Positions 5,906 through 53,045 of a DNA stretch of 64,000 bases are shown here, in pieces; position 1 is the first letter of the stretch, and each line of letters begins with the position of its first letter. The DNA comes from Euglena gracilis (lineage: Eukaryota): NCBI GenBank assembly GCA_039621445.1, contig CP154954.1, positions 10,001,521 through 10,065,520 of the forward strand, given 5' to 3'. A program made the translations under genes and the position numbers. The notes beneath the pieces were generated by a model. That model saw nothing but the letters and a program-made list of their open reading frames with translations, did no database searches and was not told where the DNA came from.

Positions 5906-6447
5906 TGTTGGCGCAATGGGTCCGCCAAGGAGTTGGTAGGAACAGCCAAATAGCGCAACCCACAGCGGAACAAATTAGAACCCAATCCAAAGGTTTGATG
6001 AAACAAAAATCTTTCTCTTATCCACAGGGTCCTTCTGTTTTCTTTCTACCACTCTTATCCCTTCTACTACCATCACCACAACTTGTACTTCACATTGGTG
6101 TTCCCAATTGTATCAAAGTCATTCATTTTGCTGCATTTGATTCAAGACTTCTTCCCAAGGGTTTCCAAAGGGAATCATTGAATCTTTCCCAAGTATTTTT
6201 TCACCCATTGTCCAGGTTTGTTCTTTTTTTCCAAATCAAAGTCCCTCAATTTTCTCTTGCAAACTGTTTGGTGTGAGATAGGACCTGAGCTCATCCTAGT
6301 CCGCACAAGGAAACAAACTTTTGCACCAAAGGGAAAATGCCAGGGGGGAATTCAAAAGTGGATCCTACGCTTCCGGAAAAGGGCAAAACCCAAATCCGGG
6401 ACCCTGTCTCCTCCCCGGCACCAGGACACGGGGGGGAAGGGGAAACA
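5906..6447 (+). repeat. 5' LTR (542 bp)
   Basis: Starts TGTTGGCG, ends GGAAACA; near-identical to 26127-26668 (about 6 substitutions seen by eye). Confidence 0.96.
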
Positions 6448-9373: not shown

Positions 9374-9437
9374 GGCTGCCAACGCCTTGGGAAGGGGTCG
9401 GTCCCAAGGCGTGGCGCCTATTCTATTCATGCCCCCC
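9371..9437 (+). promoter_or_regulatory. Candidate gag-pol stop-codon readthrough signal (UAG + 8-nt spacer + stem/pseudoknot)
   Basis: TAG 9371-9373 is in frame with pol; 11-bp stem ACGCCTTGGGA(9382-9392)/TCCCAAGGCGT(9402-9412); loop GGGG could pair with the C run at 9432-9437. Confidence 0.65.
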
Positions 9438-9442
9438 AACGA

Positions 9443-12400
9443 TTGGCAATGTTGGACCTGTTTTCTGGGTCGGGTGTTGTTGGTGATTGTTTTCGAAAAC
9501 ACAACTTCTATGTTGTGAGTCTAGATTTGGATCCCAAAACAAACCCAACCATTTTGGTCGACATTTTGCAATGGAATTATAAGCAATGGAATCCTCATTC
9601 TTTTTATGTCATCACCGCGTCATGCCCCTGTGAGGCATATAGCACGGCGCGTTCTATTTTGCCAAGGGATTTTGAATTCGCCGATGCTATTGTTTTGCAA
9701 ACCCTCAAAATTATTCAATGGTTCGATCCTAATTTTTGGTGGATTGAGAATCCAAGGAGGGGTTTCCTGAGAACGAGACCTTTTATGGAAAATATCCCCT
9801 ATGTCGATTTTGACTATTGCCAATTTTCATCATGGGGATACCAAAAACCAACCCGATTCTGGATTTCAGAGTCTTTCAAAGGAATGCCAGAAAGGTTATG
9901 TAACTTTTTGACCTGCGAAAACTTGCTCCTGGGCACCAAAGGACACAAAGTGAGACTGGGGGGTCCAAAAGGTACCGTTTCACAAAAAATGAAAGGTCGA
10001 ATCCCCCATGCGTTGATTGAGTGCCTCATCAACTGGGCGATTCAGACCGATTCTTTGGTTGCTGAAACAAGTGGTTTAACGTTTGACCATGCAAATAATT
10101 CTGCTACCCAATCTGCTAACACATCACACTCAAAACCTACCCCCACTCCCCGAAGAAAAGAGGTGCGTTTCACAATGCCTACCGAAGATGGAGAAATGGA
10201 AAGTCAGGCATCACAAGTTGTGGACCATTTACCTTTTGCAGAATTGACACAAGAAGAGCTCAGGGAGTGGGTTGGTGAATCAAACTCATCCCCCCCAAGT
10301 TTTTTAATGGGTGAGAATGAGTCCGTTTCTATTTACATTCCAAACAGAATGATTGGAGAAAGACATGCTTTTGCCGTTGGAAAATGCAATTTTGTGCACC
10401 AGGAGGATGTTTGGCAATTGTTATTGAGGGTGCAGGTGGGCCTCCCAAACGGAGAACAAAAATGTTTCAGAATTCTTGTTGACACGGGGGCAGAAGTGAA
10501 TTTGGTGAAAAAATCACTCATTTCTCAGCATTCTTTCAGAATGTCCTCACGACCTTTGAAGTTAATAGTGGCTTCGGGACAGGAAATGGAGGGTGGAAAA
10601 AGGGAGGTGGAACTTTCATTGTTTTTCGACCAATTTGAGAATGGAATGCCAGTGGTCGAAATTTTTGAAGCAAAAGGAATTTTCTATGAGGCAAGAATCG
10701 ATGTGGATGCCATTATTTCTTTCAAATGGTTGTATGAACACCAGTTGGGTGTTTTCCCTCACTTACACGCCTTGGCACGAAATGGGGATCATCTCACACT
10801 TTTGAGGGGTGTGAACAAACGGCACCGGTCATTTCACCCTTCACACTTAAGACTGAATGACAAGGGGAAGAGGGGGAGGCAAGGAAAAGACAATGATGCT
10901 CTTGTAACGGAGGGGAGTTTTGATTACACCTTCCAGCAAATGACAAATTGGGGTTTTTGTCTTCCCCCGGAGGTGTTTGAAGTGGAACCCCAATATCTTA
11001 CACGGAAAGAAATTTGTTACATTGCACAAAGATTGTCAGGGGAGGTGGGGGTGAGCACACACGTGGATGGATACATTTGTACTCCTGAAGGTGCCAGGAT
11101 TGTCAATGAGAGGGTGGAGAAGTTGCGTGCCTCCATTATGAATGACTATGGGGATACGGTCCTAAACCCGGAAATCATTTTTGACCCCCCCGTGAGAGGT
11201 CCCTTTGGGTATGCTTATATTCCGTTGAAACCCGATGCAAAACCCGTTCGGCAAAAACCGTTTTCTTTACACGGGGAGCGACAAGAGGCTTACAGGAAAG
11301 TTGCCCAGGGTTGGTTGGACAAAAAATATGTAGAGTTTCCAGAAAGGGGAAAAGTGGAATGGCTTGTTCAAGGTTTTGTGGTTCCCAAGAAAAAACCAGG
11401 AGAATATAGAGGAATTGTCGACATGAGAGGCCCCAATAGCCAAACCCTCCGGGGACATTACGTGATGCCTTTAATATCCGATTTGCTCGTAAGGCAAGGG
11501 GCAAAACAAATTTTCTCCATTTTGGATTTGAGGGAGGCCTTCCACCAACAACCCTTACACCCCGAAAGTCGGCATATCACATGCACATACACACCTTTTG
11601 GGATTGTGCAGTGGAGAGTCAATGCAATGAGTTTAATGAATGCTTCGGGACAATTTCAGCAAATGATGAATGACCGTTTGAGATCTGTCCAACACATAGC
11701 GGACCCATACATAGACGATATTTTGGCGGGCACACGGATTGAAAAGGGGGGGTGGGAAGATTTGCTCACAAAACACGACAAAGAGTTAAGGGAAGTTTTG
11801 GATGTGATGAAAGATGACCGTTTTGGTTGTGATCCACGGAAATGTGAATTTTTTGTGGAGGAAGTTGAGTTTTGTGGACACAAATTAAGTAAGGGGACGA
11901 GAAAGCCCGCCCCTGGAAAATTAAGGGCTATTGAGAATTGGGAATTACCCCCCACCATTACAGCCATGAGAGCATTTCTCGGTTTCACAAATTATTACTC
12001 GGAATACGTGAAAAATTACGCAGAAATTGTGGCCCCCCTTCAGGAAAAGTTGAAAGTACCACGAGCTGAAGGAAAAAAGGGGAGCAAAAAACGGATTGAA
12101 TATTCAGAGGAGGACATCCGATGTTTTGGGGAAATCAAAAGAAAACTTTGTGAGAGTTTGATTCTTCAAAGGGTAAACCCCGATAAACCATTTGTTTTAA
12201 GGGTTGATTCAAGTGGACGAGCGGTAGGGGCGACCTTGGAACAAATGAAGGACATTGAAACTTGTCCCACCGAGGAGGAGGTTCGAAAAGGCAAAACCGT
12301 CCCCGTGGCTTTCCTTTCACGTAAATTAACCACCTCACAAAGAAATTGGATACCCCGGGAGGTGGAAACCTATGCTATCATTTTGGCGTTACAAAAATGG

Positions 12401-12919
12401 GCTTCTTGGATTGGGGTGCAACCAATTTTGGTTTTGACTGACCACCAATCCCTCAAGGATTGGTATACCGAACATGTGGACACCCCGTGTGGACCTATTA
12501 ATAGACGGGCACGGTGGCATCAAATGCTTTCCAAATTTGATTTGACTATTGGCTTTGTGCCGGGAAAAGAAAATTTTATTGCCGACATTTTAAGCCGATG
12601 GGCTTACCCGGCAAGTGAAGCATTTCTCGATGTATCAAAACATGGGAGTTTGAAGGATCTACAGGAAATGAGGGAAATTATCGAATCTGAAAAAGCGGAT
12701 GAAAAATTTTGCATGGTGATTCGACTTCATGCATATCCAGACTCCAAGGATATTTTTGGAGTACGCACCCCAAGTGGGTTGAAGACTTCCGAGGGACATG
12801 ATTTGATTCAAAAAACACGCACGGAGGAAAATTTGCAAGAATCACCACTCATGGAAGGGGGTGGCCCCACAAGCGAGGCGAACCCCCCCCGTGAGAAAAT
12901 TATCAAAAACTATGGGTGA
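9443..12919 (+). CDS. pol: Pol polyprotein: C5-cytosine DNA methyltransferase, aspartic protease, reverse transcriptase, RNase H
   Basis: LDLFSGSG (motif I, 9461-9475), ASCPCEAYS (catalytic PC, 9626-9631), WIENP (motif VI, 9746-9754), YQKPTRFW; ILVDTGA (10481); LDLREAFHQ, YIDDIL (11708); RNase H VDSSGRAVGA, E-TYAI, TDHQSL, NFIADILSR. Confidence 0.93.
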   Translation: MAMLDLFSGSGVVGDCFRKHNFYVVSLDLDPKTNPTILVDILQWNYKQWNPHSFYVITASCPCEAYSTARSILPRDFEFADAIVLQTLKIIQWFDPNFWWIENPRRGFLRTRPFMENIPYVDFDYCQFSSWGYQKPTRFWISESFKGMPERLCNFLTCENLLLGTKGHKVRLGGPKGTVSQKMKGRIPHALIECLINWAIQTDSLVAETSGLTFDHANNSATQSANTSHSKPTPTPRRKEVRFTMPTEDGEMESQASQVVDHLPFAELTQEELREWVGESNSSPPSFLMGENESVSIYIPNRMIGERHAFAVGKCNFVHQEDVWQLLLRVQVGLPNGEQKCFRILVDTGAEVNLVKKSLISQHSFRMSSRPLKLIVASGQEMEGGKREVELSLFFDQFENGMPVVEIFEAKGIFYEARIDVDAIISFKWLYEHQLGVFPHLHALARNGDHLTLLRGVNKRHRSFHPSHLRLNDKGKRGRQGKDNDALVTEGSFDYTFQQMTNWGFCLPPEVFEVEPQYLTRKEICYIAQRLSGEVGVSTHVDGYICTPEGARIVNERVEKLRASIMNDYGDTVLNPEIIFDPPVRGPFGYAYIPLKPDAKPVRQKPFSLHGERQEAYRKVAQGWLDKKYVEFPERGKVEWLVQGFVVPKKKPGEYRGIVDMRGPNSQTLRGHYVMPLISDLLVRQGAKQIFSILDLREAFHQQPLHPESRHITCTYTPFGIVQWRVNAMSLMNASGQFQQMMNDRLRSVQHIADPYIDDILAGTRIEKGGWEDLLTKHDKELREVLDVMKDDRFGCDPRKCEFFVEEVEFCGHKLSKGTRKPAPGKLRAIENWELPPTITAMRAFLGFTNYYSEYVKNYAEIVAPLQEKLKVPRAEGKKGSKKRIEYSEEDIRCFGEIKRKLCESLILQRVNPDKPFVLRVDSSGRAVGATLEQMKDIETCPTEEEVRKGKTVPVAFLSRKLTTSQRNWIPREVETYAIILALQKWASWIGVQPILVLTDHQSLKDWYTEHVDTPCGPINRRARWHQMLSKFDLTIGFVPGKENFIADILSRWAYPASEAFLDVSKHGSLKDLQEMREIIESEKADEKFCMVIRLHAYPDSKDIFGVRTPSGLKTSEGHDLIQKTRTEENLQESPLMEGGGPTSEANPPREKIIKNYG

Positions 12920-14587
12920 GGGCGGCCCTACAAGCGAGGCGAACCCCCCCATAGGAAATTCTGGTCAAAGTGTCGACACAACACCTCAAATTGATGCACC
13001 CCATGATTCGAGCCTTGCCAAACCAGATGTAAGTGGGAGCTCTGACAAGGGGGGGGAGGAGTGCACGCCACCTCTTCTTGTTTCCCATGAAAATCTTGGT
13101 TCAATATGGGATCGGGATTGGGGGGATGCATACGCGTCATGTCCCACGTGGGGGGAACCATGGAAAAGTATCTCAGAAAAATCGGGGGATTGGCCACAGA
13201 ACTTCAAACGTTTTGATTCCCTGATTTACCAAGGAGAAAGGTTGTGTGTTCCTTTGAGTCTACAGGAACACGTCATCCATTCACATCATGACTCCTTTGG
13301 CCATTTGGTTGGGGAAAAGTTATGGAGTCAAATTGGGCATCGATATGCATTTGCAGACATTGCTTGCGCAAAGAGTTTTTCTTTCACCGTGGGAACAATT
13401 TGTTACGTATGTCAAGCTTGCATTCGGCCAAAAACTCTCCATGGGCCCATGGAATATACGGAGATCCCCCCTAAATGCATGGTAAGTGTTGCTCTTGACA
13501 TGTTCAAAATGACTTTTGTCAAGTGGGGGGGAAGAGACTTCAATTTCATGGCGTTATGTGTTGATCGCCATTCGGGTTGGATTGTAGTATCCGCACATTT
13601 GGAAAAGGGATTGACGGGGGCAATGGTGGCCCAAACAATGCTTTTGCACGCTTGGAGGCCTTTTGGAATACCAACCATTATATCCAGTGATAGGGGTGCC
13701 CATTTTGTTGGGGCGTGGTGGAAAACAATGTGCACATTTTGGCATTCGGCAAGCATTTTCCCAAGCATACCATCGTCAAGCAAATGGGAGGGCTGAAATG
13801 GCCGGACAACAAGTCATGGAAATTTTGCGGAAATTATATGTGTACAAGAAAATTTGTTGGGTTGAGGCACTGCTTCAAGTTTTGGATACCATACACGACA
13901 CAATCGGGGAGTGTGGTTTGAGACCATACGAAATTCTTTTCGGAAGGCAACGACAAAGGGGGGGAATACCCTATACACCCACCCGAGAATGTGAGGATGC
14001 CACTGAATGTTTTGAAAGAATGGCCTTTATTGACAAACAAGTGGCAGAAACTTTGAATACCATCCATGAAAAACGACTTTTGACAATGAAGCCAAAAAAA
14101 ATTCACAGATGTGGAATACACAATTGGACAAAAGGTGTGGTATAGACGACCGCCGAACAGTGGAAACAAATTGGAAACACGTTGGTTGGGACCCGCCGTT
14201 ATTAAGGAAAGGCGGGGCACGAATAGGTACATGTTGGAAATCAAACCCGGGGTAGAAACGGGGGTACACAATTCTTTCCTCAAACCTTTTAAAGAGGACG
14301 ATTTGGTGGGTAGACCAATTCATCTTTTTTATCATCAAAGAACCGAACCAGATTTGGAAGCTGGGGTTGATGAATGGGAGGTGGATGAAATTTTGGATCA
14401 CAAAGTGGACAAAAGGGGGAATTTGCTTTTCTTAACCCATTGGAAGGGTTTTCCTATGAGTGAGAACACGTGGGAACCGGTTGGAAATTTCATACACCGA
14501 TACTCTTCAGATTTTGTGAAATATTGCAACCAAAGACAACTTCCCATAGACATCACCAAGTTTTTGTCGGAGGAACCAACCTTGTGA
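12861..14587 (+). pseudogene. Integrase plus chromodomain, split across three frames (12861-13796, 13663-14145, 14111-14587)
   Basis: HHCC (HDSFGH..CYVC), DDE core (VALDMF, SDRGAHF, QANGRAE), WLGP (GPY/F-like), chromodomain WEVDEILDHK..FLTHWKGFPMSENTWEP. Confidence 0.9.
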
Positions 14588-14951
14588 AAGCTTCCCCCCC
14601 ATTCCTCAAAATTTTCATTCAATGGGTTGCTTCCTTGCCCATTTGAGGTTTTTTTCACCCCTTTGTGTTCCTTGGTTTCAGTTTCTTTGCTTTCTATTTC
14701 CTTCAATTCAATGGCTGCTTAACAGCGCCAAGAGGCTGCCAATAAAGCGCCCAATGAGGCAGCTTAAAGCGCCCAATTTCCAAGGTATTTCCCTTGCTAT
14801 GTTTTCTTTGACCCATGAGAGCCATTGCTTTGTGACCATGGCATATATGTGCATTACCCGTTTTTAAATCCTCATTCCAATGTATTTTTGTTTTTCAATT
14901 CATTCTTGCCACTGGTAAATCACCACTTTGTGAAGCAGAAATACTCAAGGG

Positions 14952-15228
<277 letters not shown>

Positions 15229-15419
15229 ATTCATGCGTGCACAAATACATATTCAGGAGTGTTCATCGAACCCCGGCACGCCATTTCAGAAAAAGGGAGA
15301 AAGAGGTGACAAGATGAAGGTGTGCATCAATATCGTTGTTGTTTTGTGATCTCCCCAAGCCTTGAGAGCCCCAATCCGTGTAGCAATATGAGGAAGGCAT
15401 TCGGTTGTATGGACCCTGT

Positions 15420-24290
<8,871 letters not shown>

Positions 24291-24655
24291 GGGGGGGGAC
24301 GGATTAATATTCAGGCCCCCCCCGAGGGGGGGGTTTTTGGGAGACAAATTGAATTGGGCCAACAAAAGATATCGGAACGGGACACGGACCTTGATGCACA
24401 AGGGGTGGAAAAACAATTCAAAAATGGACGGACGTGCATGGACGAAATACCCACGTTTTAACACATGCACATAGATGCACAAATTGAAATAGAATGCACG
24501 GTATGATAACCGATGTAGTAGAAGCGTACGAGAGAGTGCGCGATTACACCCTTCCCACCTCCCCCTCATCCCGAATGCCGCCCGGAGGGAGGCTAACACT
24601 TTGGTGGAAGGGGTGAGGATAAACCATTCATGCGCGCGCACGAGAAACACCACAC

Positions 24656-25174
24656 GTGCAAGCAAGTGATGGCTGCATGGAGCGCCATGGAAGGGGGGGG
24701 GACCCACAAATTCCAATGGACGATTCTCTCACAATCGAAGGTCTTATTTCACAAGCCCCTCGCAATGTTTTGATGGAACGAATTTTGGAAGGAGCAACAA
24801 ATCACCCCCCAATTGGCACAACAACATACGCCCCCACACGCAATGTGCCTTTGGATGCGCCATTGGGCAGCTTGGGACAAATTAACACAACCTTGCCAAG
24901 ACACACACTTTTGGGTTGTGAATGCCCCGTCTTATGCCGACAACACGGGTTATGCATGCACAATGCGAAGGCGAGATGCAATAACGGTGAAATTATAAGC
25001 GGTTGTGACCAATGCTTAACGGTAAAGCAAGAAGTTTGCATTTGTTTGGCAATTGACCGTTGCAATCGGCACGACCATTGCCTTTGCACACGTAAGGGGT
25101 TAGCCAGAATAGCGTACACCCCAAAATGCCTGAAGTGTCGAGGCATTCAAGAAAAGGCACGTGCGATGGAATGA
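24656..25174 (+). CDS. Cys/His-rich extra ORF inside the LTR element, function unknown
   Basis: 172-aa ORF with a dense Cys cluster (CECPVLC..HGLC..C..CDQC..CIC..CNRHDHCLC..CLKC), followed by a Pro/Thr-rich frame at 25369-25803. Confidence 0.35.
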   Translation: MQASDGCMERHGRGGDPQIPMDDSLTIEGLISQAPRNVLMERILEGATNHPPIGTTTYAPTRNVPLDAPLGSLGQINTTLPRHTLLGCECPVLCRQHGLCMHNAKARCNNGEIISGCDQCLTVKQEVCICLAIDRCNRHDHCLCTRKGLARIAYTPKCLKCRGIQEKARAME

Positions 25175-26115
25175 ACGGGGGGGGGAGACGGATGGAGTGA
25201 TCGGTGAAAAGCGCCCATTTTGTTTTTACTACCTTCGTTTCAATGGTTATGGTGTTGGTGTGTGTGACTCTTACTCTTCCAATGAAAATTACATCACGGC
25301 TGCCAACGGCGCCTTTTTGAGAATTCAACGCTTTTCACACCCCAACCGCAAAGTGTTGTCACCTGCCGTTGGCGCCCCGCCGGCGAAGGCGGCCACGCCG
25401 CCGTTTGGCGGACATGATCGTCATTGCCGTGCGGGAGGCCATGGCCAACATCAACCCACCGACAACACCTACTCCTACACCACCAACTACTACTACTCCC
25501 CTATCTACTACACCAACCTCAACTCCATCTACCGCGACCCCGAACCGCACTACGCCAACAACCCCGCCCCCGAGACCAACACCTACTTCAACCCCTTCCA
25601 CACCGTCGACGGCTGTCGGGAGCGGCGGCGCGGGCGGCGGAGTCGGGCCCTGGTGGCCGCGCGGAGCCCGCGGCGGGCAATGGCGGCGCTTCGCCCCCTA
25701 CCAAGCCCCCTTCGCACCACCACAATACCCGCAGCCGCAATTCTACCCTTTCCCTCCCCCATACCCGTCCCTTCCTTACCCCCCGCCTTTCCCATATTAC
25801 TGATGAATCCATTGTGGCTCCATGGGAGCCATGGTGGTGGCATGCCCTGTGGATCTGAGAAGGAAAACCCCCTTTTTTTCTTTACATCATAAGGCTGTTC
25901 CATAAGACAAGAGCGGAATCCAACACAAATACTCCCAAGAAATTGCTTTTTTTTCCCCGATCACCGAATTTTTATCCTATGTTTTTTTTGTTTTTATTTG
26001 TTTCACATTCTGTGCCCAAGATGCCAAGACCAAGCTCGGAAAGAAATAAGAATGGGGGTGGGGTGTTTGAAAGCGCCCACAAGTGGCCGCAATGGTGCGA
26101 GCCGGGTTGGCTCGC

Positions 26116-26126
26116 AAGGGGGGGAG
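26116..26126 (+). promoter_or_regulatory. Polypurine tract
   Basis: AAGGGGGGGAG immediately before the 3' LTR. Confidence 0.9.
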
Positions 26127-26668
26127 TGTTGGCGGAATGGGTCCGCCAAGGGGTTGGTAGGAACAGCCAAATAGCGCAACCCACAGCGGAACAAATTAGA
26201 ACCCAATCCAAAGGTTTGATGAAACAAAAATCTTTCTCTTATCCACAGGGTCCTTCTGTTTTCTTTCTACCACTCTTATCCCTTCTACTACCATCACCAC
26301 AACTTGTACTTCACATTGGTGTTCCAAATTGTATCAAAGTCATTCATTTTGCTGCATTTGATTCAAGACTTCTTCCCAAGGGTTTCCAAAGGGAATCATT
26401 GAATCTTTCCCAAGTATTTTTTCACCCATTGTCCAGGTTTGTTCTTTTTTTCCAAATCAAAGTCCCTCAATTTTCTCTTGCAAACTGTTTGGTGTGAGAT
26501 AGGACCTGAGCCCATCCTAGTCCGCACAAGGAAACAAACTTTTGCACCAAAGGGAAAATGCCAGGGGGGAATTCAAAAGTGGATCCTACGCTTCCGGAAA
26601 AGGGTAAAACCCAAATCCGGGACCCTGTCTCCTCCCCGGCACCAGGACACGGGGAGGAAGGGGAAACA
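26127..26668 (+). repeat. 3' LTR (542 bp)
   Basis: TGTTGGCG...GGAAACA, followed by the GTAC target duplication. Confidence 0.96.
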
Positions 26669-27183
26669 GTACCAGCTGTTCCACAGCAGCTGGCCATCCC
26701 TGGTGATCTGCTCCAGCAGAGGCTGCAGCGCAAGGGCGAACCCTATGGGGCCCAACGGGCAGCCTTGGTGTGTGCCTTTCTGTGATGGGATAGAGCCACC
26801 ACCACAGAACAGGGGAACGTGCCCACTGTACGCAAATCTCAGGAAATTGAAAAGACTGGGGGTGCGCGTTTCAGCCTCCGTTAGGATCGCCCCGCGGTCC
26901 ACTGTGTTGAACGCGTTGGAGTAGTCCACCTGGAGGGAAACCCAGGGCGAGGTGTCCCCCAGCTGAGTGACCAGGTGTTGCATGCCCAGAGCGACGGCCT
27001 CTGCCGCGTTTCGCACCCCAACCCCGACCTGGGTAGGGGCGAGGGTCGCGACCTCAGATCTGGTGTTTGGTGTCTGGAGGCAGTCTTGGAGGTGGCTGGG
27101 TCGCAGCCCAGATGGCCCCGGTGCCGATCCCCGCGGGAAACGACGAATGGCCTCCTTCAGTCTGTCCTCCCAGTCAGGGGTGT

Positions 27184-27914
27184 GGAGGCGGACGGACGGA
27201 CGGACAGACGGCTGGTGAAAAAAGCGAAGGTCCGGACGGACGGCTGACCTTGTGGGCTTGGTCCAGACGGCTGAAGAAAATGCACTTGGTCCAGCTAGTC
27301 GGCTGGCCGGCCGGCCGGCTGGCCGGCCAGCCGGCCAGCCGGCCGGGTCTTTGGAAGCGCAGGCGAAGGGCAAGAAAGGTCGCGTAGATCTCCAACCGGA
27401 AGTAACGGTCCAGATCTCCACACAACATGTCAGATCTTTGTACGATGTCCGCTGAGCTGCCCCGTACTACAAGGTTCGTATCAGAGGTGATGCACGGGCC
27501 TATTTCTGTGGTATTTATCATTCAACCTCAAGATGATTATTTCCAACTTCCTGTTTTTTCTGAGGCGGGCACAATAATTTTCATAAAAGTACACGGATGA
27601 TAATGACATCGCCCCCCGTGGCATAGCGGTCGTGTGGTTAGCGTGTGAGCGGTAGGTCGCGGGTTCGAATCCCGCCGGAGGGGCAACTTCGCGTTTTTCC
27701 TGGTCTGACGTGATGAGAAGAGGGGAGCCGTGACTGCTTTTCGGAAGGAAGGAAAAATTTTTTTTGGTCCGGCCGGCTGGCAAGATAGTCATTGGTCCGG
27801 CTTGACGGACGGCTGGCGAAAAAATGCTTCGTCCGGACGGACGGCTGGGCGTCCAGCATTGGTCCGGCTGAAGAGGTCCGGACGGCTCGGACGGACGGAC
27901 GGCCAGCCGCCCCC
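27184..27914. mobile_element. 731-bp TIR insertion in the RT of element A, carrying a tRNA-like sequence
   Basis: Termini GGAGGCGG/CCGCCCCC, TGT duplicated on both sides, (CGGA)n subterminal repeats; removal restores the reading frame FPEKH-TPDWED. Confidence 0.8.
27611..27685 (+). ncRNA. tRNA-like sequence (pseudo-tRNA or SINE head) with Pol III A and B boxes
   Basis: A box TGGCATAGCGG (27619-27629); T-arm GCGGG-TTCGAAT-CCCGC; GCCCC..GGGGC-A acceptor-like stem; anticodon arm does not fold well. Confidence 0.65.
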
Positions 27915-28660
27915 TGTGTTTCTCGGGAAATGGGCGGACGTAACGCGGCAGGCGGTTGGTATCAACGTTCCTGCCGGCAGGGTGTAGCCTTTCCAGGGCA
28001 GCCCAGACTTCTGGGTCGTCAGGCTGGTGTGCGCCCTCGGACAGCAGGATTTGAACTGCCTTCGCGGATGCCCCTTCTGCGGTGAGGGTGCGAACGCGTC
28101 GCGTCATTGCTTCACTGAGGGCGGTGGGCTGTGTTCTAGAGCGCTTTTCCGCCCTAGTTTCTACAATGGAGTGTCGTGTCTGGGTGTCCTTCAGAGCCTC
28201 TGTCAATAGGGTAGCGTAACGCCCTTCGCGGAACAGCCTTGTTCGTCTCAGCAGGATGGATTCCAGCTCTGCTGGCGGCGGTGGTTTGGTTGTTGATGCG
28301 GGACGCAGGACAAGCTTTGGGAAACATAGCACGGCAAACAAAGCCGCGTCCGAGGGTGTGTGTGTATAGGCCGTGATGGCGTCTGCCAAGGTGTCGAAGA
28401 CAGGTTGTTGGCAGGCAGAGGGTAGGTGGATGAAGGTCGGGATTCTCTGTTGAAGGACGTGGGTGATCTCGCACGGGGGAGTGCCCACCACCAGGCTGTG
28501 CATTGGCTGTCCTCGAAGATTGGATTCCTGACCTACGTCGTTAATGACCATCGCCGCGTCGCGTTCCGGGTGAGCGAGGTCCAGGAAAAAGGTTGTCGTG
28601 TTCCCTGGCGTCCGTTTCGGTTGGTGCATTGCGGGGGGACGGCGGTGCCGGACGCTTGGC

Positions 28661-28714
28661 TGGTCCAGGGTTCTCTTCCACATCCCCGCAGGTGAGGAGG
28701 CTACCCCGCCCGCG
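28661..28714 (-). other. 2A ribosome-skipping peptide #3, RGRGSLLTCGDVEENPGP
   Basis: Full DVExNPGP consensus; last 17 residues identical to T2A (EGRGSLLTCGDVEENPGP). Confidence 0.93.
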
Positions 28715-29209
28715 GTTTGCCCCTCCCGTGTGGACGCCGCGCAGCCTCGGGCTACGGTGGCCGTTTTTTGAAAGGATTTGGGCGGACGTCGTCTCGGCCG
28801 GTGGGACCTGTACAGCGTGGAGGAGGGAGCGTGGGGTGGGGTTTAGCCTGAAGGCCGGGTGGCAAATTGGTGGTTTGGGTGCGGCGAAATGTTGGGGCAG
28901 TAGTGTGGGACAGTCCCAAGGCCATTGCCAAAGCCCACAGCGTTGGCACCAGTGAGGGGAGGTTCCCCGGATGTCCCAGAGGGCGTCCAGGTAGATGAGG
29001 AAAGTCCGGCCCGCGTAGTCCCCCAGGTGGAATATTTCGCCGCCATGGATGGTGGTTCGCTCTTTGATAAGGCGGTGCTGCCCCGGGGAGAGGAGGGGTG
29101 CAAGCGGGTATGGTGTGTACGTGGTGCGTGGCCGGCGATGCCGGATGCTAGCGTTGGGGGCGGGGCTTGCCGGCTGCGGGGCACTGCTGAGTGTCCTGCG
29201 GCCAGGGTG

Positions 29210-29605
29210 GCATATCCGCAGGGCCGTGAACGCCCAGGTGCGGGCCGGGAGGAGTGCCGTCCCCCTGGCGCGGTAGATAGGGCACCGCGGCAAGGTCAAG
29301 CTGCCCGAGGAGATGCTCCGTAGGGTAGGCAGCACAGTGGACCACTCTGGTGCAATGAGGATGATGTTGCCCCCATGGCAGAGGACGTGTTCAAGTACAC
29401 GGGGGAGCAAGGAAAAAGGCGGGTTGCACCATAAGGGGTTTGGCAGGTTCCAGTCCTGGAGGAAAGCATCCTCCCTGTGCGACCAAAAGTGGGCTAGTTG
29501 TGTGTTGTTCTGGTGGGCAAAGGCGTCGATGGTGGGCGGGTTATGGGGCGAAAGGGCCTGTACTACCGTGGCGAACCAGGGGGGTCCAGCATAAAGTCCT
29601 CACGT
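29210..29605 (-). CDS. Dam-like DNA N6-adenine methyltransferase domain (phage-Dam/DIRS-MT type)
   Basis: Manual translation: EDFMLDP/WFATVVQALSPHNPPTIDAFAHQNNTQLAHFWSHREDAFLQDWNLPNPLWCNPPFSLLPRVLEHVLCHGGNIILIAPEW; IDAFA 29516-29530, NPPF 29414-29425; 1-nt frameshift in a G6 run near 29580. Confidence 0.85.
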
Positions 29606-29649: not shown

Positions 29650-29700
29650 GGGGCCGGGATTACTCTCCACGTCTCCGGCGGTGAGGATGGCGTCCCCCCT
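29650..29700 (-). other. 2A peptide #2, RGDAILTAGDVESNPGP
   Basis: Manual translation (not in the ORF track); full DVESNPGP consensus. Confidence 0.9.
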
Positions 29701-29768
29701 GCCATTCGATGCATGAGGGGAAATGGGAATTGGGCTGCCAGCATGTTCCCACCCATCAGAAGCCCTTT

Positions 29769-29959
29769 TGTTTCACAACGGCTTTTCAGCAAAACGGCGA
29801 AAAAGCCGTTCAGCCATTTAGCAAAACGGCAAAAAAGCCGTTTAGCCGTTGGCAAAACGGCAAAAAAGCCGTTTCGCCGTTAGCAAAACGGCGAAAAAGC
29901 CGTTTTGCCAGCCAAAGGTGAGAAAAATGGCAAAAAAGCCGAAAAGCCGAAATGAAACA
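29769..29959. repeat. Small insertion of tandem AAAACGGC(G/A)AAAAAGCCGTT palindromic units with imperfect TIRs
   Basis: TGTTTCA..CGGCTTTTC / GAAAAGCCG..TGAAACA ends; about 30-bp internal repeats. Confidence 0.6.
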
Positions 29960-30542: not shown

Positions 30543-30590
30543 AGGGCCCGGGTTTTCTTCGATATCCCCACAGCGCAGGATATCCCTGTG
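30543..30590 (-). other. 2A peptide #1, HRDILRCGDIEENPGP
   Basis: In ORF 29880..31277(-); full DIEENPGP consensus. Confidence 0.9.
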
Positions 30591-31919
30591 GCATTTTTGC
30601 CTTTGGTGGTTGAGCCACATGCCTGCTGGCCACATGGGGCCGCCGGCCGTGTGGGTGTCCACTATGCACCAGGTCCCCCGTGATTTGGCGAGGGGCAGCC
30701 ACCAGACCCCCCCCCCCTGGGGCATAGCACATGGGACGTACAGGAGGAGCTGGACCTCATCGTCTGCCAGGTCAGACCAGGTGCGTCCGGGGGGGTGAGG
30801 GGGAAGGGGGGCCGCATTGATATGGATGTTTTCCAGCCAGTGATCCACGAGGGCTTTTTTGTATTTTTTTCTTTGGCCGGTCCATACCCCCCAAATGGAG
30901 GCGTCCGTCGAGGACAGCACAGACCAGTCGTCTGCGGCTGTCACCGAGTTTGTTGGCAGCTTTGCTGGGGTTTGGGCTTTACCAGCCCTGGCTTGTGCAG
31001 CATTCAGTGGTGTTTTTCTTTCCTCCACTATCTCTGCCACTTGCTGTTTTTCCAGTGTGGACCTGGTCCTTAATTTTTCCAGGACTTTCCAATTAATTTT
31101 CCACACTTTTGCTTCCCCATGGATGCCTGGAAGGACCGCCCAGCCACAACAGCAGCAACAGCTGCAGCCCCAAATGGGGCCACAAATGGGCAGCCAAATA
31201 GGGACCCATGTGGGCAGCCTTCTGGGCAGCCCAGTGGGGAACATCCCCACTATGAGTGCCAGTGCAACAGCCAACAACCATCAAGGGCTGCAGCTCCCCA
31301 CCGACCTGCTGCGACAGCTGCTGTTGCAAATCATGTTGCTGCTGATTGGAAATGTTACAAATCAAAATGGCAGCAACATGCCCAATGCTGTCCCACAATT
31401 AATGGCCCCCCCAGCTGGAACTATTGGACCCTTTCCCCCACAAGTTCTCCCCCTTGTGCCCTGCCCTATGCCCTGCCCAAGCCAAAGGTGGGAAGGGGGG
31501 GGGAACAGGAAGTATTTGAGGTCCCAAAAGAGACAAGACCCCCCCCAAAAAATGCACCACAACACCCCAAATACAGGTGTGTGTGTGTGTGTGTGTGTGG
31601 TGGCCAGGGGTGCGGTAAGGGCTGCTAAGGCTGCTGCTGTGGCTGGTGGCGGAGGTGTCGAGGGATGTACTTGTGCTGGTGCTTTTGTCGTAGGTAGTCT
31701 TCGTAGGCTTCTTCTTCTCTTTTTCTTTTTCCGGTTCGTCCCTGCAGGTACTCCACCTTGTCGGCCAGGGCGTCGATCTTGCCAGCTAAGCTCTGCATGT
31801 TCTGAGCCACCAGGCTCACTTGGTCCAGCACCGTAGTCAATTTTTTGTTCAGGATGACGTTGTCCAGCGTCACCTCCAGCACGGCCGGTGGACCTTCTGG
31901 GGCTGCCGCCCCGACATGG

Positions 31920-31945
31920 CGAAAAAAAATAGACACTCAGAAAGT
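31920..31945 (-). other. Euglenid spliced-leader exon, followed by CC-ATG
   Basis: ACTTTCTGAGTGTCTATTTTTTTTCG matches the Euglena SL as I recall it; no GT donor follows. Confidence 0.9.
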
Positions 31946-32108
31946 AAGAACGGCTAGGCTGGTCTCAAAATCGCGAAAGTTCTAGCGTAGGCGACCACGC
32001 CAGGTATTTCCTAATTGTGTGTCAGAAAAGTGTTCACCTCCAACAATGTCTTCGGGCTTCAAAATATACCCCACCAGGGGCTTTTACTTGTCCGACATGA
32101 TATGCAGA

Positions 32109-32134
32109 CGAAAAAAAATAGACACTCAGAAAGT
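32109..32134 (-). other. Second euglenid spliced-leader exon copy
   Basis: Identical 26-mer, followed by TCTGCATATCATGTCGGAC. Confidence 0.9.
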
Positions 32135-50048: not shown

Positions 50049-50125
50049 ACACTTTCTGAGTAGCTTTTTTTTGTTCGCATATCATGTCGGACAAATGAAA
50101 GCCCCTGGTGGGGTATATTTTGAAG
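50049..50125 (+). other. Degenerate spliced leader plus the same downstream motif as 32056-32134
   Basis: ACACTTTCTGAGTAGCTTTTTTTTGTTCG-CATATCATGTCGGACAA..AAAGCCCCTGGTGGGGTATATTTTGAAG. Confidence 0.75.
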
Positions 50126-53045
50126 TTCCGAAGTTCGACATCACACATTCTGAAATTGCGAAGCACTTCATTACATTGCAGATTGGTTGACATTGGAACC
50201 CGTTCTCAACATGAGTGAGCGAGAGAGACGTGGATTCCAGGTATAAGAGGGCGCTGAAGCGCCGCTGGGAGAAAGATACATGTCCCCGGGCGAGAGGCGA
50301 CGCGCCAGAGCACTGAGCCGCCAGATGAAAGCCAGGAGGAAAGCAGACAAAACAAGACACCAGGTCTGCAGGAGAAGCAGCCCCAGGAGACACAGCAGCC
50401 CTGGGAGATCTATGGAAAAGCAAGCTGCCAGAAGTTCCAGGAGCCCTCCTGAAGAAGAAGCCCATCCTTTCTTCAGTCTGACACCAAAGTCACCAGAACC
50501 ACAAAGCCAACAAATGGCCCTCATGCCCATGGAGTACCATGCCCCCCCCCTTTACTGTCCCCCCCCCTTACTGTTCCCATTGGGGGGACGGGAACAGTAC
50601 AGTGTCATAGCACTTTTTGTAAAGGATTCTTGGAACACAATTCAAAAAAGGGGATTTTTTGGTCAGTTTTTAGGTGCTTTCCATCCCACCAAAATCCAAC
50701 CTAATGCCAAAATGGATGTTGTGGAGGTGCAATTTTCAAGCATGTAAACCAAAAAAGCTTCATTTTGGCATTTTAGGTCGCCTTTTGGGTCTAACTTGGT
50801 TGGTTGGTTCATGGCCCATGGGAGCAGCAGGGGGGGGGGAGCTCGTCCCCCCCCTTACTGTTCCCCCCCTTACTGTTCCCATGGACCCAAAAGGGGGCCA
50901 CGGGACGGGAACAGTAAGGGGGGGGCATGGTAACAAAGCTCAAGCTCCGGGCACGTTCTGGGTGAAGCTGTGCTACCCGCCGTGAGAGGAGTGTCCGACT
51001 TCCTTTCTTTTTGGAATGCCAGAAGTACCGATGAGGAAGCTTTTTGAAAATCTCTGCATACGTCAACACTCCAAACCACCAGTTTTTTTATTTCCCTTGC
51101 GAGTGTGAGCGACAGCCCCTGCCACACATGGTAGTCTCCTCCCATTGACTATGCTCTCCATAAATTCCATTGCGCAACCTCCACCTCCAAAACATGCTGA
51201 ACTGTTTGGCTGTTGGGCCCATGAAAAAACCTTCTCGTCTGTTGGTCATGGACCATTCACCATTCATGGAACAAATGGGACACAAACCTGCTAAAAAACA
51301 CCACGAATGGCACACCCACACACACCAATGTGTGCCAACCACAGCCAAGTTTAATAACTGGCTTGACAAGGAAGTAACGTTTGACAACACCAGCGGATGA
51401 AGAGCGCACCTTGCGCGTACATTTGACCTTCAAAACAATATAACAACCTGTACACAATGTTTTTCAGTTGCACCATCAGCGTACCTCACCTTTGTTCAAT
51501 CACACTCGCATTGCGCCTTGTGCGCACGACGTTGTACAGTTAGCACCACAATCACGCTGTAGATGTTGTACATAGAACGCCCCACCGAGTCCCCTTTTAC
51601 AACTAACACGTGAAAACGATGGCCACGTAGCCTAGAATGATGGCCACCTCAAAAAAAAGGTTTTCCACATTCCCCAGAATGATGGTCACCTAACCCAAAA
51701 CTCTGGCCACCGAACGTGCCCTCCTTAGCCACTGGACCTGTAAACGTTGGCCACTTTTTCTGGAACTTGAAAATGTTGGCTTTTTTTTGTTGTGTCGTAT
51801 GTTGAATGATCCTGTGCTGCCCGGCTTCTTTTTTTCACTCTTCCCTCAGTTTTTTTTCTCAATGCCCGTTTGAAGGCATTTTGGTTGGCGTCGTGGGCGC
51901 CGTCAGGCCCATCAAATTCTGTCCCGAGAGAAGCTGGATGACATTTTTGGTGCATTGAGCGCCGATGAGCACTGAGACCCCGAGCTCAGTACTGCGCAAT
52001 TGGCACGCCGGTTCAACATTCCCCGTCGAAGTGTCTGGCGATTGTACGAGGAATGGCAGGACCATAGCTTTGCTCAGGCTCATTTTCCGTGTCTCCTCGC
52101 GTGAAAGGATGAGCGGTTTTATTTCAGAAAACACATCCCCATGTTGTCTGTCACCACAATTTTCCTTCCTTTTTTTTGCAAGAAAAAAATTATAACAAAT
52201 GATGTCTTTTGGTTGTCAGTTTGTTCCTTTTCTTTTCTCAACACGATTTCGTTCCCAATCCACGTGTTCTGAAAAGTTTACTACACAGTAAGAAAATAAA
52301 TTGACCTGTAAAACGTTCAGCCCTCTTTGCAAATGGCAGGTAAGAAGCAGATAACCAAAAATTTTCATTGCTTGTTGCACACATGAATTAAAAAAGACGA
52401 AATTCCGTTGCATTGGTGTCAGGGAAGTTACTGCAATGTCAATGCTTTCGTTTGACAACTCTTTTGTCAAATCTCCATTCCGCAATCAGACTGGCACCAC
52501 TTCAAGCATTGTATAGCCTCAATGAAGACATTTGTTTTCAATGAGGCGGGCACTGTCCGATCGTTGAACCCAGTTGTCTCAGGACCTGTGCATGGGTGTA
52601 GATGAAAGTTGTAGAGTTATTTTTGACATTAAATGTGAAAACTACATGCATTCGTTCTTGTACGACAAGGCAAGGATGAGGATGTTTTAAAAAAAAATCT
52701 GGTACAACACGTCACTAAAAATTTTTTGCTTAGAAACATAATTTTGTTTTATGAATGGAGGACTCTTCAGTAGGTCCGACAAGGTTTCTTTGCATTATTT
52801 TTTTGAAACTTTTTTTTTATTATCCTGGTGACGATGTTACATATGACATATTCAAATGTTGTTGCTCCTTTCACAACATTACAATTGCCATTACCCCCCC
52901 CTAAATGACACCCCCTTTGGTCTCAGCCAGGGGCCAAAATTGCAATCAGGGGGGGTCAATTAGGGGGGGGGGGTCCCGGAGCCGAAAATTCAGGGGGGTC
53001 GGTTAAGAACCCCCCCGGGGCGTTGGCAGGGGGGGGGGTCCCGAG

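What the first reader, a model, noticed from the sequence alone, without database searches (positions are those of the whole stretch)
31625..32134. Spliced-leader exons cap the 5' end of the 2A/MTase retroelement
Seen: a perfect 26-nt SL at 31920-31945(-) is followed by CC-ATG. Adding one G in the following G run gives MSGAAAPEGPPAVLEVTLDNVILNKKLTTVLDQVSLVAQNMQSLAGKIDALADKVEYL, a coiled coil like an ORF1. A second SL lies 189 bp upstream. Neither has a GT donor, so they are not SL RNA genes. Known: CRE/SLACS/CZAR elements of trypanosomatids target SL RNA genes, and genomic SL relics mark retroposed trans-spliced mRNA. Inference: either the element's RNA is trans-spliced and copied full length, or it targets SL sequence.
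Basis: partly seen in the sequence, partly recalled or inferred. Interest (0 to 1): 0.75.

Follow-up and report, generated by a model that had tools for sequence, protein, structure and literature searches.

The report
Spliced-leader tags heading a Euglena retrotransposon
Two exact DNA copies of the Euglena gracilis spliced leader, which is normally added to mRNAs only by trans-splicing, sit at the head of a decayed R2-like retrotransposon, most likely because a trans-spliced RNA was copied back into the genome.

Summary
Confirmed: two perfect 26-nt E. gracilis spliced leaders (SL) lie on the minus strand at 31945-31920 and 32134-32109, 189 bp apart (0 expected by chance).

- **Not SL RNA genes.** 7 of 7 real euglenid SL RNA genes fetched from metagenomes continue GTAT after the SL. 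Here the SLs continue CCATG and TCTGCAT.
- **SL#2.** It ends exactly at the exon boundary, 2 nt before an ATG. A 1-nt frameshift then leads into a helical ORF1-like frame.
- **The element.** Downstream lies a decayed non-LTR retrotransposon with three 2A peptides, a Dam-like methyltransferase, RT, a CCHC motif and a restriction-like endonuclease. A close relative folds like R2.
- **Damage.** A nested 20.8-kb LTR element splits the RT, and the 3' end is lost, so 3' junction and target duplication cannot be read.
- **SL#1.** It heads a separate, very high-copy sequence, with a third decayed copy at 50051. It is not SL-RNA-like when scored against controls.

Best reading (about 0.45): a trans-spliced element RNA was reverse-transcribed to its capped end, and the upstream SL#1 and 89-nt pieces were stacked on by template switching or nesting.

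Rivals:
- SL#2-ORF1 is another RNA's 5' fragment (0.25).
- SL-directed integration, as in CRE/SLACS/NeSL (0.15).

Only one copy could be examined, so this rates as a new variant of a known kind, of moderate interest.

The parts
32109..32134 (-). SL#1: perfect 26-nt E. gracilis spliced-leader exon encoded in DNA, followed by TCTGCAT (no GT donor)
   Evidence: SL identity from a passage of PMC6242988
32035..32108 (-). Leader that follows SL#1. It is very high-copy in DNA runs. 32105-32057 is 96% identical to 50077-50125(+). It is not SL-RNA-intron-like when scored against controls.
   Evidence: summed depth about 2e5 in bin 32020-32170 against 1-4e4 in neighbouring bins; R1 23.6 bits against 52.2 for a held-out real gene and 18.9 for an exon-only relic; intron-only model at most 0.8 bits on this strand
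31946..32034 (-). 89-nt spacer ('module 2'), a fragment of a third repeat. In other genomic copies it is preceded by a different sequence.
   Evidence: depth about 15-22k at 31980 and 31988; loose ends at 32034 in 5 (X1) and 9 (X9) contigs
31920..31945 (-). SL#2: perfect 26-nt SL exon ending exactly at the exon boundary, followed by CC-ATG
   Evidence: R1 matches the exon only, 13.9 bits
31625..31936 (-). ORF1-like frame (103 aa, stop at 31625). ATG at 31917-31915 is one base out of frame with it. Predicted as one long helix. No relatives found.
   Evidence: 4 unrelated repeat-protein hits among 1.84 billion representatives
31281..31624 (-). Non-coding stretch with a (CA)n run and G/C runs between ORF1 and the 2A polyprotein frame. 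No poly(A) run.
30543..30584 (-). 2A peptide 1 (DILRCGDIEENPGP)
29650..29691 (-). 2A peptide 2 (AILTAGDVESNPGP)
28541..29599 (-). Dam-like N6-adenine DNA methyltransferase frame (WCNPPF at 29431-29402), ending in 2A peptide 3 (SLLTCGDVEENPGP, 28702-28661)
   Evidence: Pfam PF05869, E 5.2e-08, 33.2 bits, cut-off 28.1
26669..28485 (-). Pre-RT region and N-terminal half of the RT. A tRNA-like sequence lies at 27612-27684(+), within about 550 nt of extra sequence between 27979 and 27112.
   Evidence: Pfam RVT_1 29.5 bits, just under its 29.6 cut-off; tblastn to P0027 aa 321-493 and 597-753
5906..26668 (.). Nested LTR retrotransposon that splits the RT next to the YLDD motif. It is not part of the element. 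LTRs of 542 bp at 5906-6447 and 26127-26668 are 98.9% identical, run TG...CA, and are flanked by GTAC on both sides.
4648..5904 (-). C-terminal half of the RT (YLDD), linker, CCHC motif (4923-4870) and the RPAD...D start of the restriction-like endonuclease (4746-4723). Homology stops at about 4648, at aa 1178 of 1273 of P0027, so the 3' end is missing.
50051..50133 (+). Third, decayed copy of SL plus the SL#1-type leader

Best explanation
Element A (31945 down to about 4648, minus strand) is a dead copy of an R2-superfamily non-LTR retrotransposon of Euglena gracilis. It carries RT, CCHC and a restriction-like endonuclease. Its polyprotein is cut by three 2A peptides and includes a Dam-like methyltransferase.

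Proposed mechanism:
1. The element's RNA was SL trans-spliced like a host mRNA, just upstream of its first ATG. This gave it the capped 26-nt leader. (Inferred.)
2. Target-primed reverse transcription ran to the very 5' end of that RNA, so the leader became DNA. This is shown only as the end product: a complete SL exon, no intron, then CC-ATG.
3. The 189 bp upstream consist of the 5' end of another, much more abundant SL-headed RNA (SL#1 plus leader) and an 89-nt piece of a third repeat. They were added by template switching of the RT at the end of the RNA, or were already at the insertion site. (Inferred.)
4. The copy then decayed through frameshifts, a SINE-like insert and a 20.8-kb LTR element in the RT, and it lost its 3' end. 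(Shown.)
For: Both SLs are exact and not due to chance.

Junction:
- Real SL RNA genes continue GTAT in 7 of 7 matches in 6 metagenome contigs. Here the SL stops exactly at the exon end and is followed by CC-ATG, as in a mature trans-spliced mRNA.
- A covariance model of real SL RNAs gives SL#2 13.9 bits, exon only. A real SL RNA gene left out of the model (L004) scores 52.2, and another donor-less genomic SL (L007) scores 18.9.
- The bases just upstream of SL#1, SL#2 and the 50051 copy differ from each other. None shows the TAC that precedes AC-TTTCTG in the real genes whose SL begins AC.

The element is real and retrotransposon-like:
- Pfam finds Dam and RVT_1.
- There are three 2A motifs, plus CCHC and RPAD motifs.
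- It is collinear with the full polyproteins P0001, P0002, P0027 and P0032.
- The model of relative P0030 (pLDDT 91.5) has R2 proteins as its top 7 PDB matches, E 1e-20 to 2.5e-16, ahead of LINE-1 ORF2p at 2.8e-13.

ORF1 linked to the element: near-identical unitigs have depth 925-1750 at 31733 and 31744 and 900-1340 at 29150-30020 in both DNA runs. ORF1 folds as one long helix.

DNA-encoded, donor-less SLs recur: SL#1, the 50051 copy, and L007 in an unrelated public contig, where the SL is followed 67 nt later by an ATG frame.

The SL#1 piece keeps an intact RNA 5' end but lacks the family's 3' continuation. Loose ends at 32057 show that continuation in 4 DNA contigs and 5 RNA reads. This is what a template switch would give. 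That R2 reverse transcriptases jump between templates is recalled knowledge, not from a call.
Against: - Only one copy of the 5' junction could be read. No assembly of the organism is held, and Logan contigs are too short to span SL junctions.
- ORF1 is out of frame with its ATG and has no relatives. The N-terminal parts of related polyproteins are different; P0002, for example, has an SLBP-type RNA-binding domain.
- About 345 nt of non-coding sequence separates ORF1 from the 2A frame. Unitig depths in 30200-31500 are 5-66k, far above the roughly 1k of the core. The 5' third may therefore be a mosaic.
- The second family member in the window (B, plus strand, 33411 onward) has no SL with up to 6 errors, though it looks 5'-truncated or disrupted.
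- A daughter copy that begins with the SL has no AG acceptor in front of CCATG, so such copies could not be re-spliced at the same site. This reading needs master copies without the SL, and none was seen.
Confidence: 0.45

Rival explanations
1. SL#2 plus ORF1 (31625-31945, perhaps down to about 31281) is the 5' fragment of a different trans-spliced RNA, from another repeat or a retrogene. It lies next to a 5'-truncated element A, either stacked on by template switching like the SL#1 piece or as a nested insertion. The SL would then be a retroposition relic but not the element's own cap.
For: - ORF1 has no homology to the N-terminal parts of 8 related 2A polyproteins or to anything else.
- A frameshift follows the ATG.
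- About 345 nt of non-coding sequence separates ORF1 from the 2A frame.
- Unitig depth is uneven along 30200-31900.
- The SL#1 piece shows that SL-headed fragments of other RNAs do pile up at this very spot.
Against: - Unitig depth at ORF1 (925-1750) matches the MTase region (900-1340) in two runs. It is far above what a single-copy gene should give.
- There is no poly(A) run or other 3'-end mark between 31625 and 31281.
Confidence: 0.25
2. The element integrates into SL sequence by the sequence specificity of its restriction-like endonuclease, as CRE1/SLACS/CZAR and NeSL-1 do. Here the cut would fall at the exon-intron boundary of an SL RNA gene or SL-headed repeat. SL#2 would then be target DNA, and the host SL promoter would supply an SL-capped transcript.
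For: - The endonuclease is of the R2 type. CCHC, RPxD, D and K are invariant in 30 relatives, and the top 7 PDB matches to the relative's model are R2 proteins. That this class is mostly site-specific and includes the SL-gene-specific elements of kinetoplastids and nematodes is recalled, not from a call.
- Two SLs lie within 189 bp. SL-headed sequence is very abundant in the genome (summed depth about 2e5), so it would be a plentiful target.
Against: - Nothing around SL#2 looks like an SL RNA gene: no GT intron, no shared upstream flank, and an exon-only model score.
- No SL-RNA-like or leader-like sequence was found elsewhere in the window, including the 3' flank of element B and the region below 4640.
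- As recalled (no call checked this), the known SL-specific elements cut inside the exon and leave SL parts on both sides. Here the whole exon sits on one side.
- A's own 3' junction is lost, so this is not a direct test.
Confidence: 0.15
3. One or both SLs belong to working or decayed SL RNA genes that merely lie next to the element.
For: Dispersed SL RNA genes exist in E. gracilis (passage of PMC2784804). The full SL RNA model aligns SL#1 end to end at 23.6 bits, E 3.5e-4, with a GCCCC/GGGGU stem and an AUAUUUUGA site.
Against: - There is no GT donor, against 7 of 7 real genes.
- 23.6 bits is close to the 18.9 of an exon-only relic and far from the 52.2 of a held-out real gene.
- An intron-only model gives the leader at most 0.8 bits.
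- No 5S rRNA gene is in the window, although passages of PMC2784804 say most E. gracilis SL RNA genes are linked to one.
- RNA reads over SL#1 run on upstream of the SL.
Confidence: 0.04

Closest known systems
DinoSL relics on dinoflagellate retrogenes (abstracts and passages of PMC6050394, PMC5585692, PMC12014239, PMC3942190)
   Same: A leader that is added only by trans-splicing is found encoded in DNA at the 5' end of a sequence. This marks reverse transcription of a mature RNA.
   Different: Here the tagged RNA appears to be a retrotransposon's own mRNA rather than a host gene. The organism is a euglenid. The two leaders are complete and 189 bp apart, heading different sequences, not nested truncated relics from repeated re-splicing.
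CRE1/CRE2, SLACS, CZAR (trypanosomatids) and NeSL-1 (C. elegans): non-LTR elements specific for SL RNA genes (recalled, not from a call)
   Same: A non-LTR element with RT followed by CCHC and a restriction-like endonuclease, found joined to SL sequence in an organism that trans-splices, in the case of the CRE group within the same phylum, Euglenozoa.
   Different: No SL-gene context was found here: no intron, no gene-like flank, whole exon on one side. The element also carries 2A peptides and a Dam-like methyltransferase. Its position in an RT tree was not tested, and the 3' junction is missing.
R2 elements (PDB 9nl3, 9dou, 8gh6, 8iby, 9nl2, 8ibw, 8ibz)
   Same: The RT, linker and C-terminal endonuclease of the close relative P0030 give their best structural matches to R2 proteins. 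The CCHC and RPxD...D...K motifs are conserved.
   Different: Only 15-16% sequence identity, and no sequence-level PDB hit. No rDNA target is involved. The upstream 2A/MTase modules are extra.
DAM-carrying retrotransposons of eukaryotes, including E. gracilis (bioRxiv 10.64898/2026.05.21.726589; abstract and passages read)
   Same: A prokaryote-like Dam domain inside a Euglena retroelement. The preprint notes Euglena DAM elements whose RTs branch with LINE/L1-like RTs.
   Different: The preprint treats them as LTR or DIRS elements or possible chimeras. Its main text holds no occurrence of 'spliced leader', 'NeSL' or 'endonuclease'. Its supplements could not be read. Here the MTase lies upstream of an R2-type RT-endonuclease in one 2A-cut polyprotein.
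2A peptides in non-LTR retrotransposons such as L1Tc/ingi of trypanosomes and APE-type elements of animals (recalled, not from a call)
   Same: The GD(V/I)ExNPGP motif sits in frame between protein modules.
   Different: There are three sites in one element, combined with an R2-type endonuclease and a Dam domain. Skipping activity was not tested.
U6/L1 and other 5' chimeric retrocopies made by RT template switching (recalled, not from a call)
   Same: A complete 5' end of another abundant RNA is fused upstream of the 5' end of a LINE copy.
   Different: Here two extra pieces are stacked and both RNAs are SL-headed. The switch is inferred from the anatomy only.

Membership tests
R2-superfamily (restriction-like-endonuclease) non-LTR retrotransposons | Reverse transcriptase domain | tested here: met
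   In element A, RVT_1 scores E 7.4e-07 but 29.5 bits, just under the 29.6 cut-off, because the domain is split. In element B it scores E 9.8e-14, 52 bits. YLDD is at the 5904 junction.
R2-superfamily (restriction-like-endonuclease) non-LTR retrotransposons | C-terminal CCHC motif followed by a PD-(D/E)xK-type endonuclease, with no N-terminal APE endonuclease | tested here: met
   A has CTGCNQPLDKEGDHLLCC (4923-4870) and RPADLLLD (4746-4723). C, C, H, C, RPxD, D and K are invariant in 30 relatives. The top 7 PDB matches of the relative's model are R2 proteins. No APE family appears among Pfam hits. A's own domain is cut before the final K, and the fold is that of relative P0030, not of A.
R2-superfamily (restriction-like-endonuclease) non-LTR retrotransposons | RT branches with R2/R4/NeSL/CRE/Hero references in a tree | not tested
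SL-RNA-gene-specific elements (CRE/SLACS/CZAR, NeSL-1) | 5' flank is SL RNA gene sequence (promoter-proximal flank and part of the exon) | tested here: not met
   The upstream flank of SL#2 is an 89-nt piece of another repeat. It does not resemble the flanks of 7 real genes or of SL#1. The true E. gracilis SL-gene flank itself was not available.
SL-RNA-gene-specific elements (CRE/SLACS/CZAR, NeSL-1) | 3' junction continues with the rest of the SL RNA gene, or with an SL-containing target duplication | not testable with these tools
   Element A's homology ends at about 4648 and no remainder was found in 1-4640. No assembly is held.
SL-RNA-gene-specific elements (CRE/SLACS/CZAR, NeSL-1) | All or most copies sit in the same target | tested here: inconclusive
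   Element B has no SL or SL-RNA-like sequence at either end within the window, but its ends are disrupted. Other copies could not be read.
SL-tagged retrocopies (DinoSL-relic type) | Leader exon encoded in DNA, ending at the exon boundary, without the SL RNA intron | tested here: met
SL-tagged retrocopies (DinoSL-relic type) | Retrocopy hallmarks at the other end (3' tail, target duplication) | not testable with these tools
   The 3' end is lost.
SL-tagged retrocopies (DinoSL-relic type) | Same leader tag on independent copies with unrelated flanks | tested here: inconclusive
   Hints only. Three RNA reads carry a different sequence upstream of 31945, and one DNA contig joins the SL 5' end to a distant repeat. 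988 further loose-end rows were not shown.
SL RNA genes | GT(AT) donor directly after the exon, then stem-loop, Sm site, stem-loop | tested here: not met
   0 of the 2 perfect window SLs have GT, against 7 of 7 real genes. R1 scores are 23.6 and 13.9, against 52.2 for a held-out real gene. The intron-only model scores at most 0.8 bits.
DAM-carrying retrotransposons | Dam (PF05869) domain with the NPPF motif in the same element as an RT | tested here: met
   PF05869 scores 33.2 bits against a 28.1 cut-off. WCNPPF is at 29431-29402. The order 2A-MTase-2A-RT matches P0001, P0002, P0027 and P0032.
2A 'ribosome-skipping' peptides | GD(V/I)ExNPGP motif in frame between modules | tested here: met
   Three sites in A and two in B. 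8 of 125 stored proteins carry the motif. Skipping itself was not tested.

The most novel reading that the evidence does not exclude
Euglena R2-type retrotransposons have no promoter or ribozyme of their own. They obtain their capped, translatable 5' end by SL trans-splicing of read-through transcripts. Every full-length daughter copy therefore carries a DNA-encoded spliced leader. The same reverse transcriptase stacks 5' ends of other SL-capped RNAs by template switching. SL-headed retrocopies, possibly tens to hundreds of thousands to judge by summed unitig depth, would then be a major building block of the very large, repeat-rich E. gracilis genome, parallel to but independent of the DinoSL story in dinoflagellates.
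Probability: 0.3. Interest if true: 0.75.

Novelty: new variant of a known kind. Interest (0 to 1): 0.55.

Why it matters
A genome-encoded spliced leader is a built-in mark that a sequence passed through a mature, trans-spliced RNA.

- **If it heads this family in general**, a selfish element uses the host's trans-splicing to make its 5' end.
- **If the element instead aims at SL sequence**, SL-targeting by restriction-like-endonuclease elements would extend from kinetoplastids to euglenids and point to an old association within Euglenozoa.

Either way, the locus joins three modules in one R2-like element: 2A peptides, a Dam methyltransferase and an R2-type RT-endonuclease. That bears on the recent report of DAM-carrying retrotransposons whose Euglena members were left unresolved.

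Tried and rejected
**Sources that were not available**
- The window's own genome is not held.
- Keller 1992 and Tessier 1991, which hold the E. gracilis SL RNA gene sequence, are not held. The real SL RNA genes used here therefore come from unnamed euglenids in metagenomes.
- Earlier findings of this scan: nothing.

**Searches that found nothing**
- Rfam: no SL RNA, 5S or ribozyme family. Only a tRNA-like hit at gathering level, and miRNA-type noise in 31700-32400.
- Viral-contig scans for the SL and for relatives of P0027: nothing.
- ORF1 relatives: 4 hits, all unrelated repeat proteins. No match to the stored polyproteins.
- PDB by sequence with P0027: 0 hits.
- Remainder of element A's C-terminus in 1-6500: no hit beyond aa 1178.
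- Literature searches for an SL on a Euglena retroelement or for Euglena SL relics: none found in the held library. The dinoflagellate cases were found.

**Ideas tested and dropped**
- *The SL#1 leader is an SL RNA intron or SL-RNA-derived head.* The full model gave 23.6 bits, but controls gave 52.2 (real, held out) and 18.9 (exon-only relic). The intron-only model did not list the leader in the window search with default filters (E up to 10). With filters off it gave the leader at most 0.8 bits. Single-strand folds were not unusual, z -1.05 and -1.54.
- *The SL-like words in the 89-nt spacer, and the CATGTCGG shared after both SLs, are meaningful.* Shuffle tests gave p = 0.14 and 0.07.

**Sequencing runs**
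- No RNA holder was listed.
- In the lay, only 5-6% of the two RNA runs was read. 59 reads were laid per run, nearly all only partly on the stretch. No conclusion on expression of the element is drawn.
- DNA contigs are mostly very short and break at the 26-nt SL, so the 5' junctions of other copies could not be read.
Full report
**Observation**

The minus strand of 31400-32400 holds the string ACTTTCTGAGTGTCTATTTTTTTTCG twice, at 31945-31920 (SL#2) and 32134-32109 (SL#1). A search allowing 3 mismatches finds only these two, both perfect. None of 100 dinucleotide shuffles gives a match. A passage of PMC6242988 gives this exact string as the spliced leader of Euglena gracilis, so the window is euglenid nuclear DNA.

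SL#2 is followed by CC-ATG-TCG-GGG-CGG. The ATG frame closes after 15 codons. The adjacent frame reads AAAPEGPPAVLEVTLDNVILNKKLTTVLDQVSLVAQNMQSLAGKIDALADKVEYL... to a stop at 31625. AlphaFold on the single sequence predicts one long helix, residues 24-86, with pLDDT 81-97 over residues 21-80.

A looser scan finds a third, decayed SL at 50051(+). It is followed by the same leader as SL#1: 32105-32057 matches 50077-50125 at 96%.

**Are they SL RNA genes?**

No Rfam family covers the euglenid SL RNA, and the two original papers are not held. I therefore scanned public contigs for the SL.

- The metagenome collection gave 7 matches in 6 contigs. All 7 continue GTAT, followed by a stem-loop, an AATTTTTGG-type Sm site and a second stem-loop. 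One contig holds two copies 782 bp apart. These are true SL RNA genes.
- The window's SLs continue TCTGCAT and CCATG.
- I built a covariance model from six of the real genes. It scores a real gene left out of the model at 52.2 bits and a donor-less SL in another public contig (L007) at 18.9 bits.
- The same model scores SL#1 at 23.6 bits, the 50051 copy at 14.8 and SL#2 at 13.9, exon only.
- An intron-only model gives the SL#1 leader at most 0.8 bits.

None of the window's SLs is therefore an SL RNA gene. My passing idea that the SL#1 leader derives from the SL RNA does not survive these controls.

**The element behind SL#2**

Stop-to-stop frames on the minus strand below 31945 carry these features:

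| Feature | Position | Evidence |
|---|---|---|
| 2A peptide 1 | 30584-30543 | motif |
| 2A peptide 2 | 29691-29650 | motif |
| Dam-like methyltransferase (WCNPPF) | within 29599-28541 | PF05869, 33.2 bits, cut-off 28.1 |
| 2A peptide 3 | 28702-28661 | motif |
| Reverse transcriptase | 27466-26669 | RVT_1, E 7.4e-07, 29.5 bits (cut-off 29.6) |

A database search with the RT of a second copy (element B) found full polyproteins with the same order of parts: several 2A sites, Dam, RT and a conserved C-terminal domain (P0001, P0002, P0027, P0032).

Mapping these polyproteins back onto the window gave two results:
- Element A's RT stops at 26669 and resumes at 5904, running to 4648.
- Element B runs on the plus strand from about 33411 to 37632 and resumes at 61373-62163.

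The gap in A is a nested LTR retrotransposon. Its 542-bp LTRs at 5906-6447 and 26127-26668 are 98.9% identical, run TG...CA, and are flanked by GTAC on both sides.

A's C-terminal part has YLDD, CTGCNQPLDKEGDHLLCC and RPADLLLD...ALDVTV. In an alignment of 30 relatives, C, C, H, C, RPxD, D and K are invariant. A model of relative P0030 (pLDDT 91.5) finds seven R2 retrotransposon structures as its best PDB matches, E 1e-20 to 2.5e-16 over about 780-800 columns, ahead of LINE-1 ORF2p at 2.8e-13.

The family is therefore an R2-type non-LTR retrotransposon with a restriction-like endonuclease and extra 2A and Dam modules. A 2026 preprint reports DAM-carrying retrotransposons, including unresolved Euglena cases with LINE-like RTs. 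Its main text does not contain 'spliced leader', 'NeSL' or 'endonuclease' (abstract and passages read; supplements closed).

**What limits the test**

- A's homology ends at about 4648, at aa 1178 of 1273 of P0027. No remainder lies in 1-4640, so the 3' junction and any target duplication are lost.
- No assembly is held.
- Element B has no SL, but its 5' region is disrupted by a high-copy tandem repeat.

**Evidence from sequencing runs**

One lay of two DNA runs (Logan contigs) and two RNA runs (raw reads, 5-6% read) on 29000-33500 gave the following.

- *Everything here is repetitive, at different levels.* Near-identical unitigs have depth 900-1340 at 29150-30020 (MTase region) and 925-1750 at 31733 and 31744 (ORF1). 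Depth is 15-22k at 31980 and 31988 (the 89-nt spacer) and 2.6-5e5 at 32085-32106 (the SL#1 leader).
- *Equal depth at ORF1 and the core.* This holds in both runs. It is the only positive evidence that ORF1 belongs to the element family. Depths of 5-66k in 30200-31500 warn that the 5' third may be a mosaic.
- *The leader family continues differently after 32057.* This is seen in 4 DNA contigs and 5 RNA reads.
- *The spacer is preceded by another sequence in other copies.* This is seen at 32034 in 5 and 9 contigs.
- *The 189 bp upstream of SL#2 are therefore two juxtaposed fragments.* One is the intact 5' end (about 100 nt) of an abundant SL-headed sequence. The other is an internal 89-nt piece of another repeat.
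- *RNA.* Reads over SL#1 extend upstream of the SL, so there it is internal to transcripts. The element itself had almost no reads in the fraction sampled, and I draw nothing from that.

**Weighing the mechanisms**

The exact stop of SL#2 at the exon boundary, the missing intron, the ATG two bases later and the non-gene flanks match a mature trans-spliced RNA copied to its 5' end. L007 shows the same kind of relic in an unrelated contig: SL, 67 nt, then an ATG frame. I give 0.45 to the reading that the copied RNA was the element's own. I give 0.25 to the reading that SL#2-ORF1 is another RNA's 5' fragment stacked or nested there, as the SL#1 piece is. A relic of retroposition of some kind therefore totals about 0.7.

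The stack of fragments that ends in an intact RNA 5' end fits template switching. That R2 reverse transcriptases do this is recalled knowledge, and the switch itself is inferred.

SL-directed integration gets 0.15. It is raised by the R2-type endonuclease and by the recalled precedent of CRE/SLACS/CZAR/NeSL. It is lowered by the lack of any SL-gene context and by the whole exon lying on one side. A working or decayed SL RNA gene gets 0.04. The rest is left for DNA-level rearrangement.

**Novelty**

SL relics on retrocopies are established in dinoflagellates (abstracts and passages). SL-gene-specific elements with a restriction-like endonuclease are established in kinetoplastids and nematodes (recalled). 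My searches of the held library found no report of an SL on a Euglena retroelement or of SL relics in Euglena DNA. With one readable copy, this is a new variant of a known kind and of moderate interest. The assembly-wide alignment of 5' and 3' junctions would decide it.

Noticed in passing
window 5906-26668: A 20.8-kb LTR retrotransposon is nested in element A's RT next to the YLDD motif. Its 542-bp LTRs (5906-6447 and 26127-26668) differ at 6 positions, run TG...CA, and are flanked by GTAC on both sides. Its interior holds long G-rich short-period repeat arrays at about 15400-24300, with strong GC skew. No RT or integrase was looked for inside it.
   Followed up: partly
window 33411-37632 and 61373-62163 (+): A second, diverged family member (element B) lies head-to-head with A. 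It has two 2A sites (33948-33989, 34272-34313), no Dam domain, an RT with YLDD (36301-36324), and CCHC at 61656-61709. It is split by about 23.7 kb of inserted DNA.
   Followed up: partly
window 50051-50133 (+): A decayed SL plus the same leader as SL#1 lies inside the DNA that splits element B. It is followed by an arginine/serine-rich frame at 50247-50747. What this family is, and how long it is, remains unknown. Its summed depth in DNA runs is about 2-5e5.
   Followed up: partly
window 27612-27684 (+): A tRNA-like sequence (Rfam tRNA 33.6 bits; ARAGORN reports an odd 4-base anticodon) lies between 27979 and 27112, where element A has about 550 nt more than its relatives. It looks like a tRNA-derived SINE.
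   Followed up: no
window 29755-30056: A short stretch inside element A has summed depth of about 2.5-3e5 in both DNA runs, with many joints and loose ends. It is probably a very abundant small insert or MITE.
   Followed up: no
window 53000-60500: A long tandem array shows up as repeating translations in all frames. A further tandem repeat of about 140-320 bp at 32990-33500 has depth 1-3e5.
   Followed up: no
window 14950-15230 and 31576-31604: Long CA/TG dinucleotide runs.
   Followed up: no
protein P0002 residues 40-101 (relative, not in the window): The first 2A-delimited module of a related polyprotein is a histone stem-loop-binding-protein RNA-binding domain (PF15247, E 2e-13; weaker in P0001). 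This suggests the family swaps different RNA-binding 'ORF1' modules at its N-terminus.
   Followed up: no
L007:791-816 (+): A 988-bp contig filed under a bacterial MAG holds a perfect Euglena SL without a donor. An ATG frame follows 67 nt later. It looks like a euglenid contaminant and an independent DNA-encoded SL relic.
   Followed up: partly
L006:16-39 and 798-821 on its minus strand; L001-L005: True euglenid SL RNA genes in metagenome contigs, one as a 782-bp tandem repeat. L004 lacks a clear Sm site yet scores 52 bits.
   Followed up: partly
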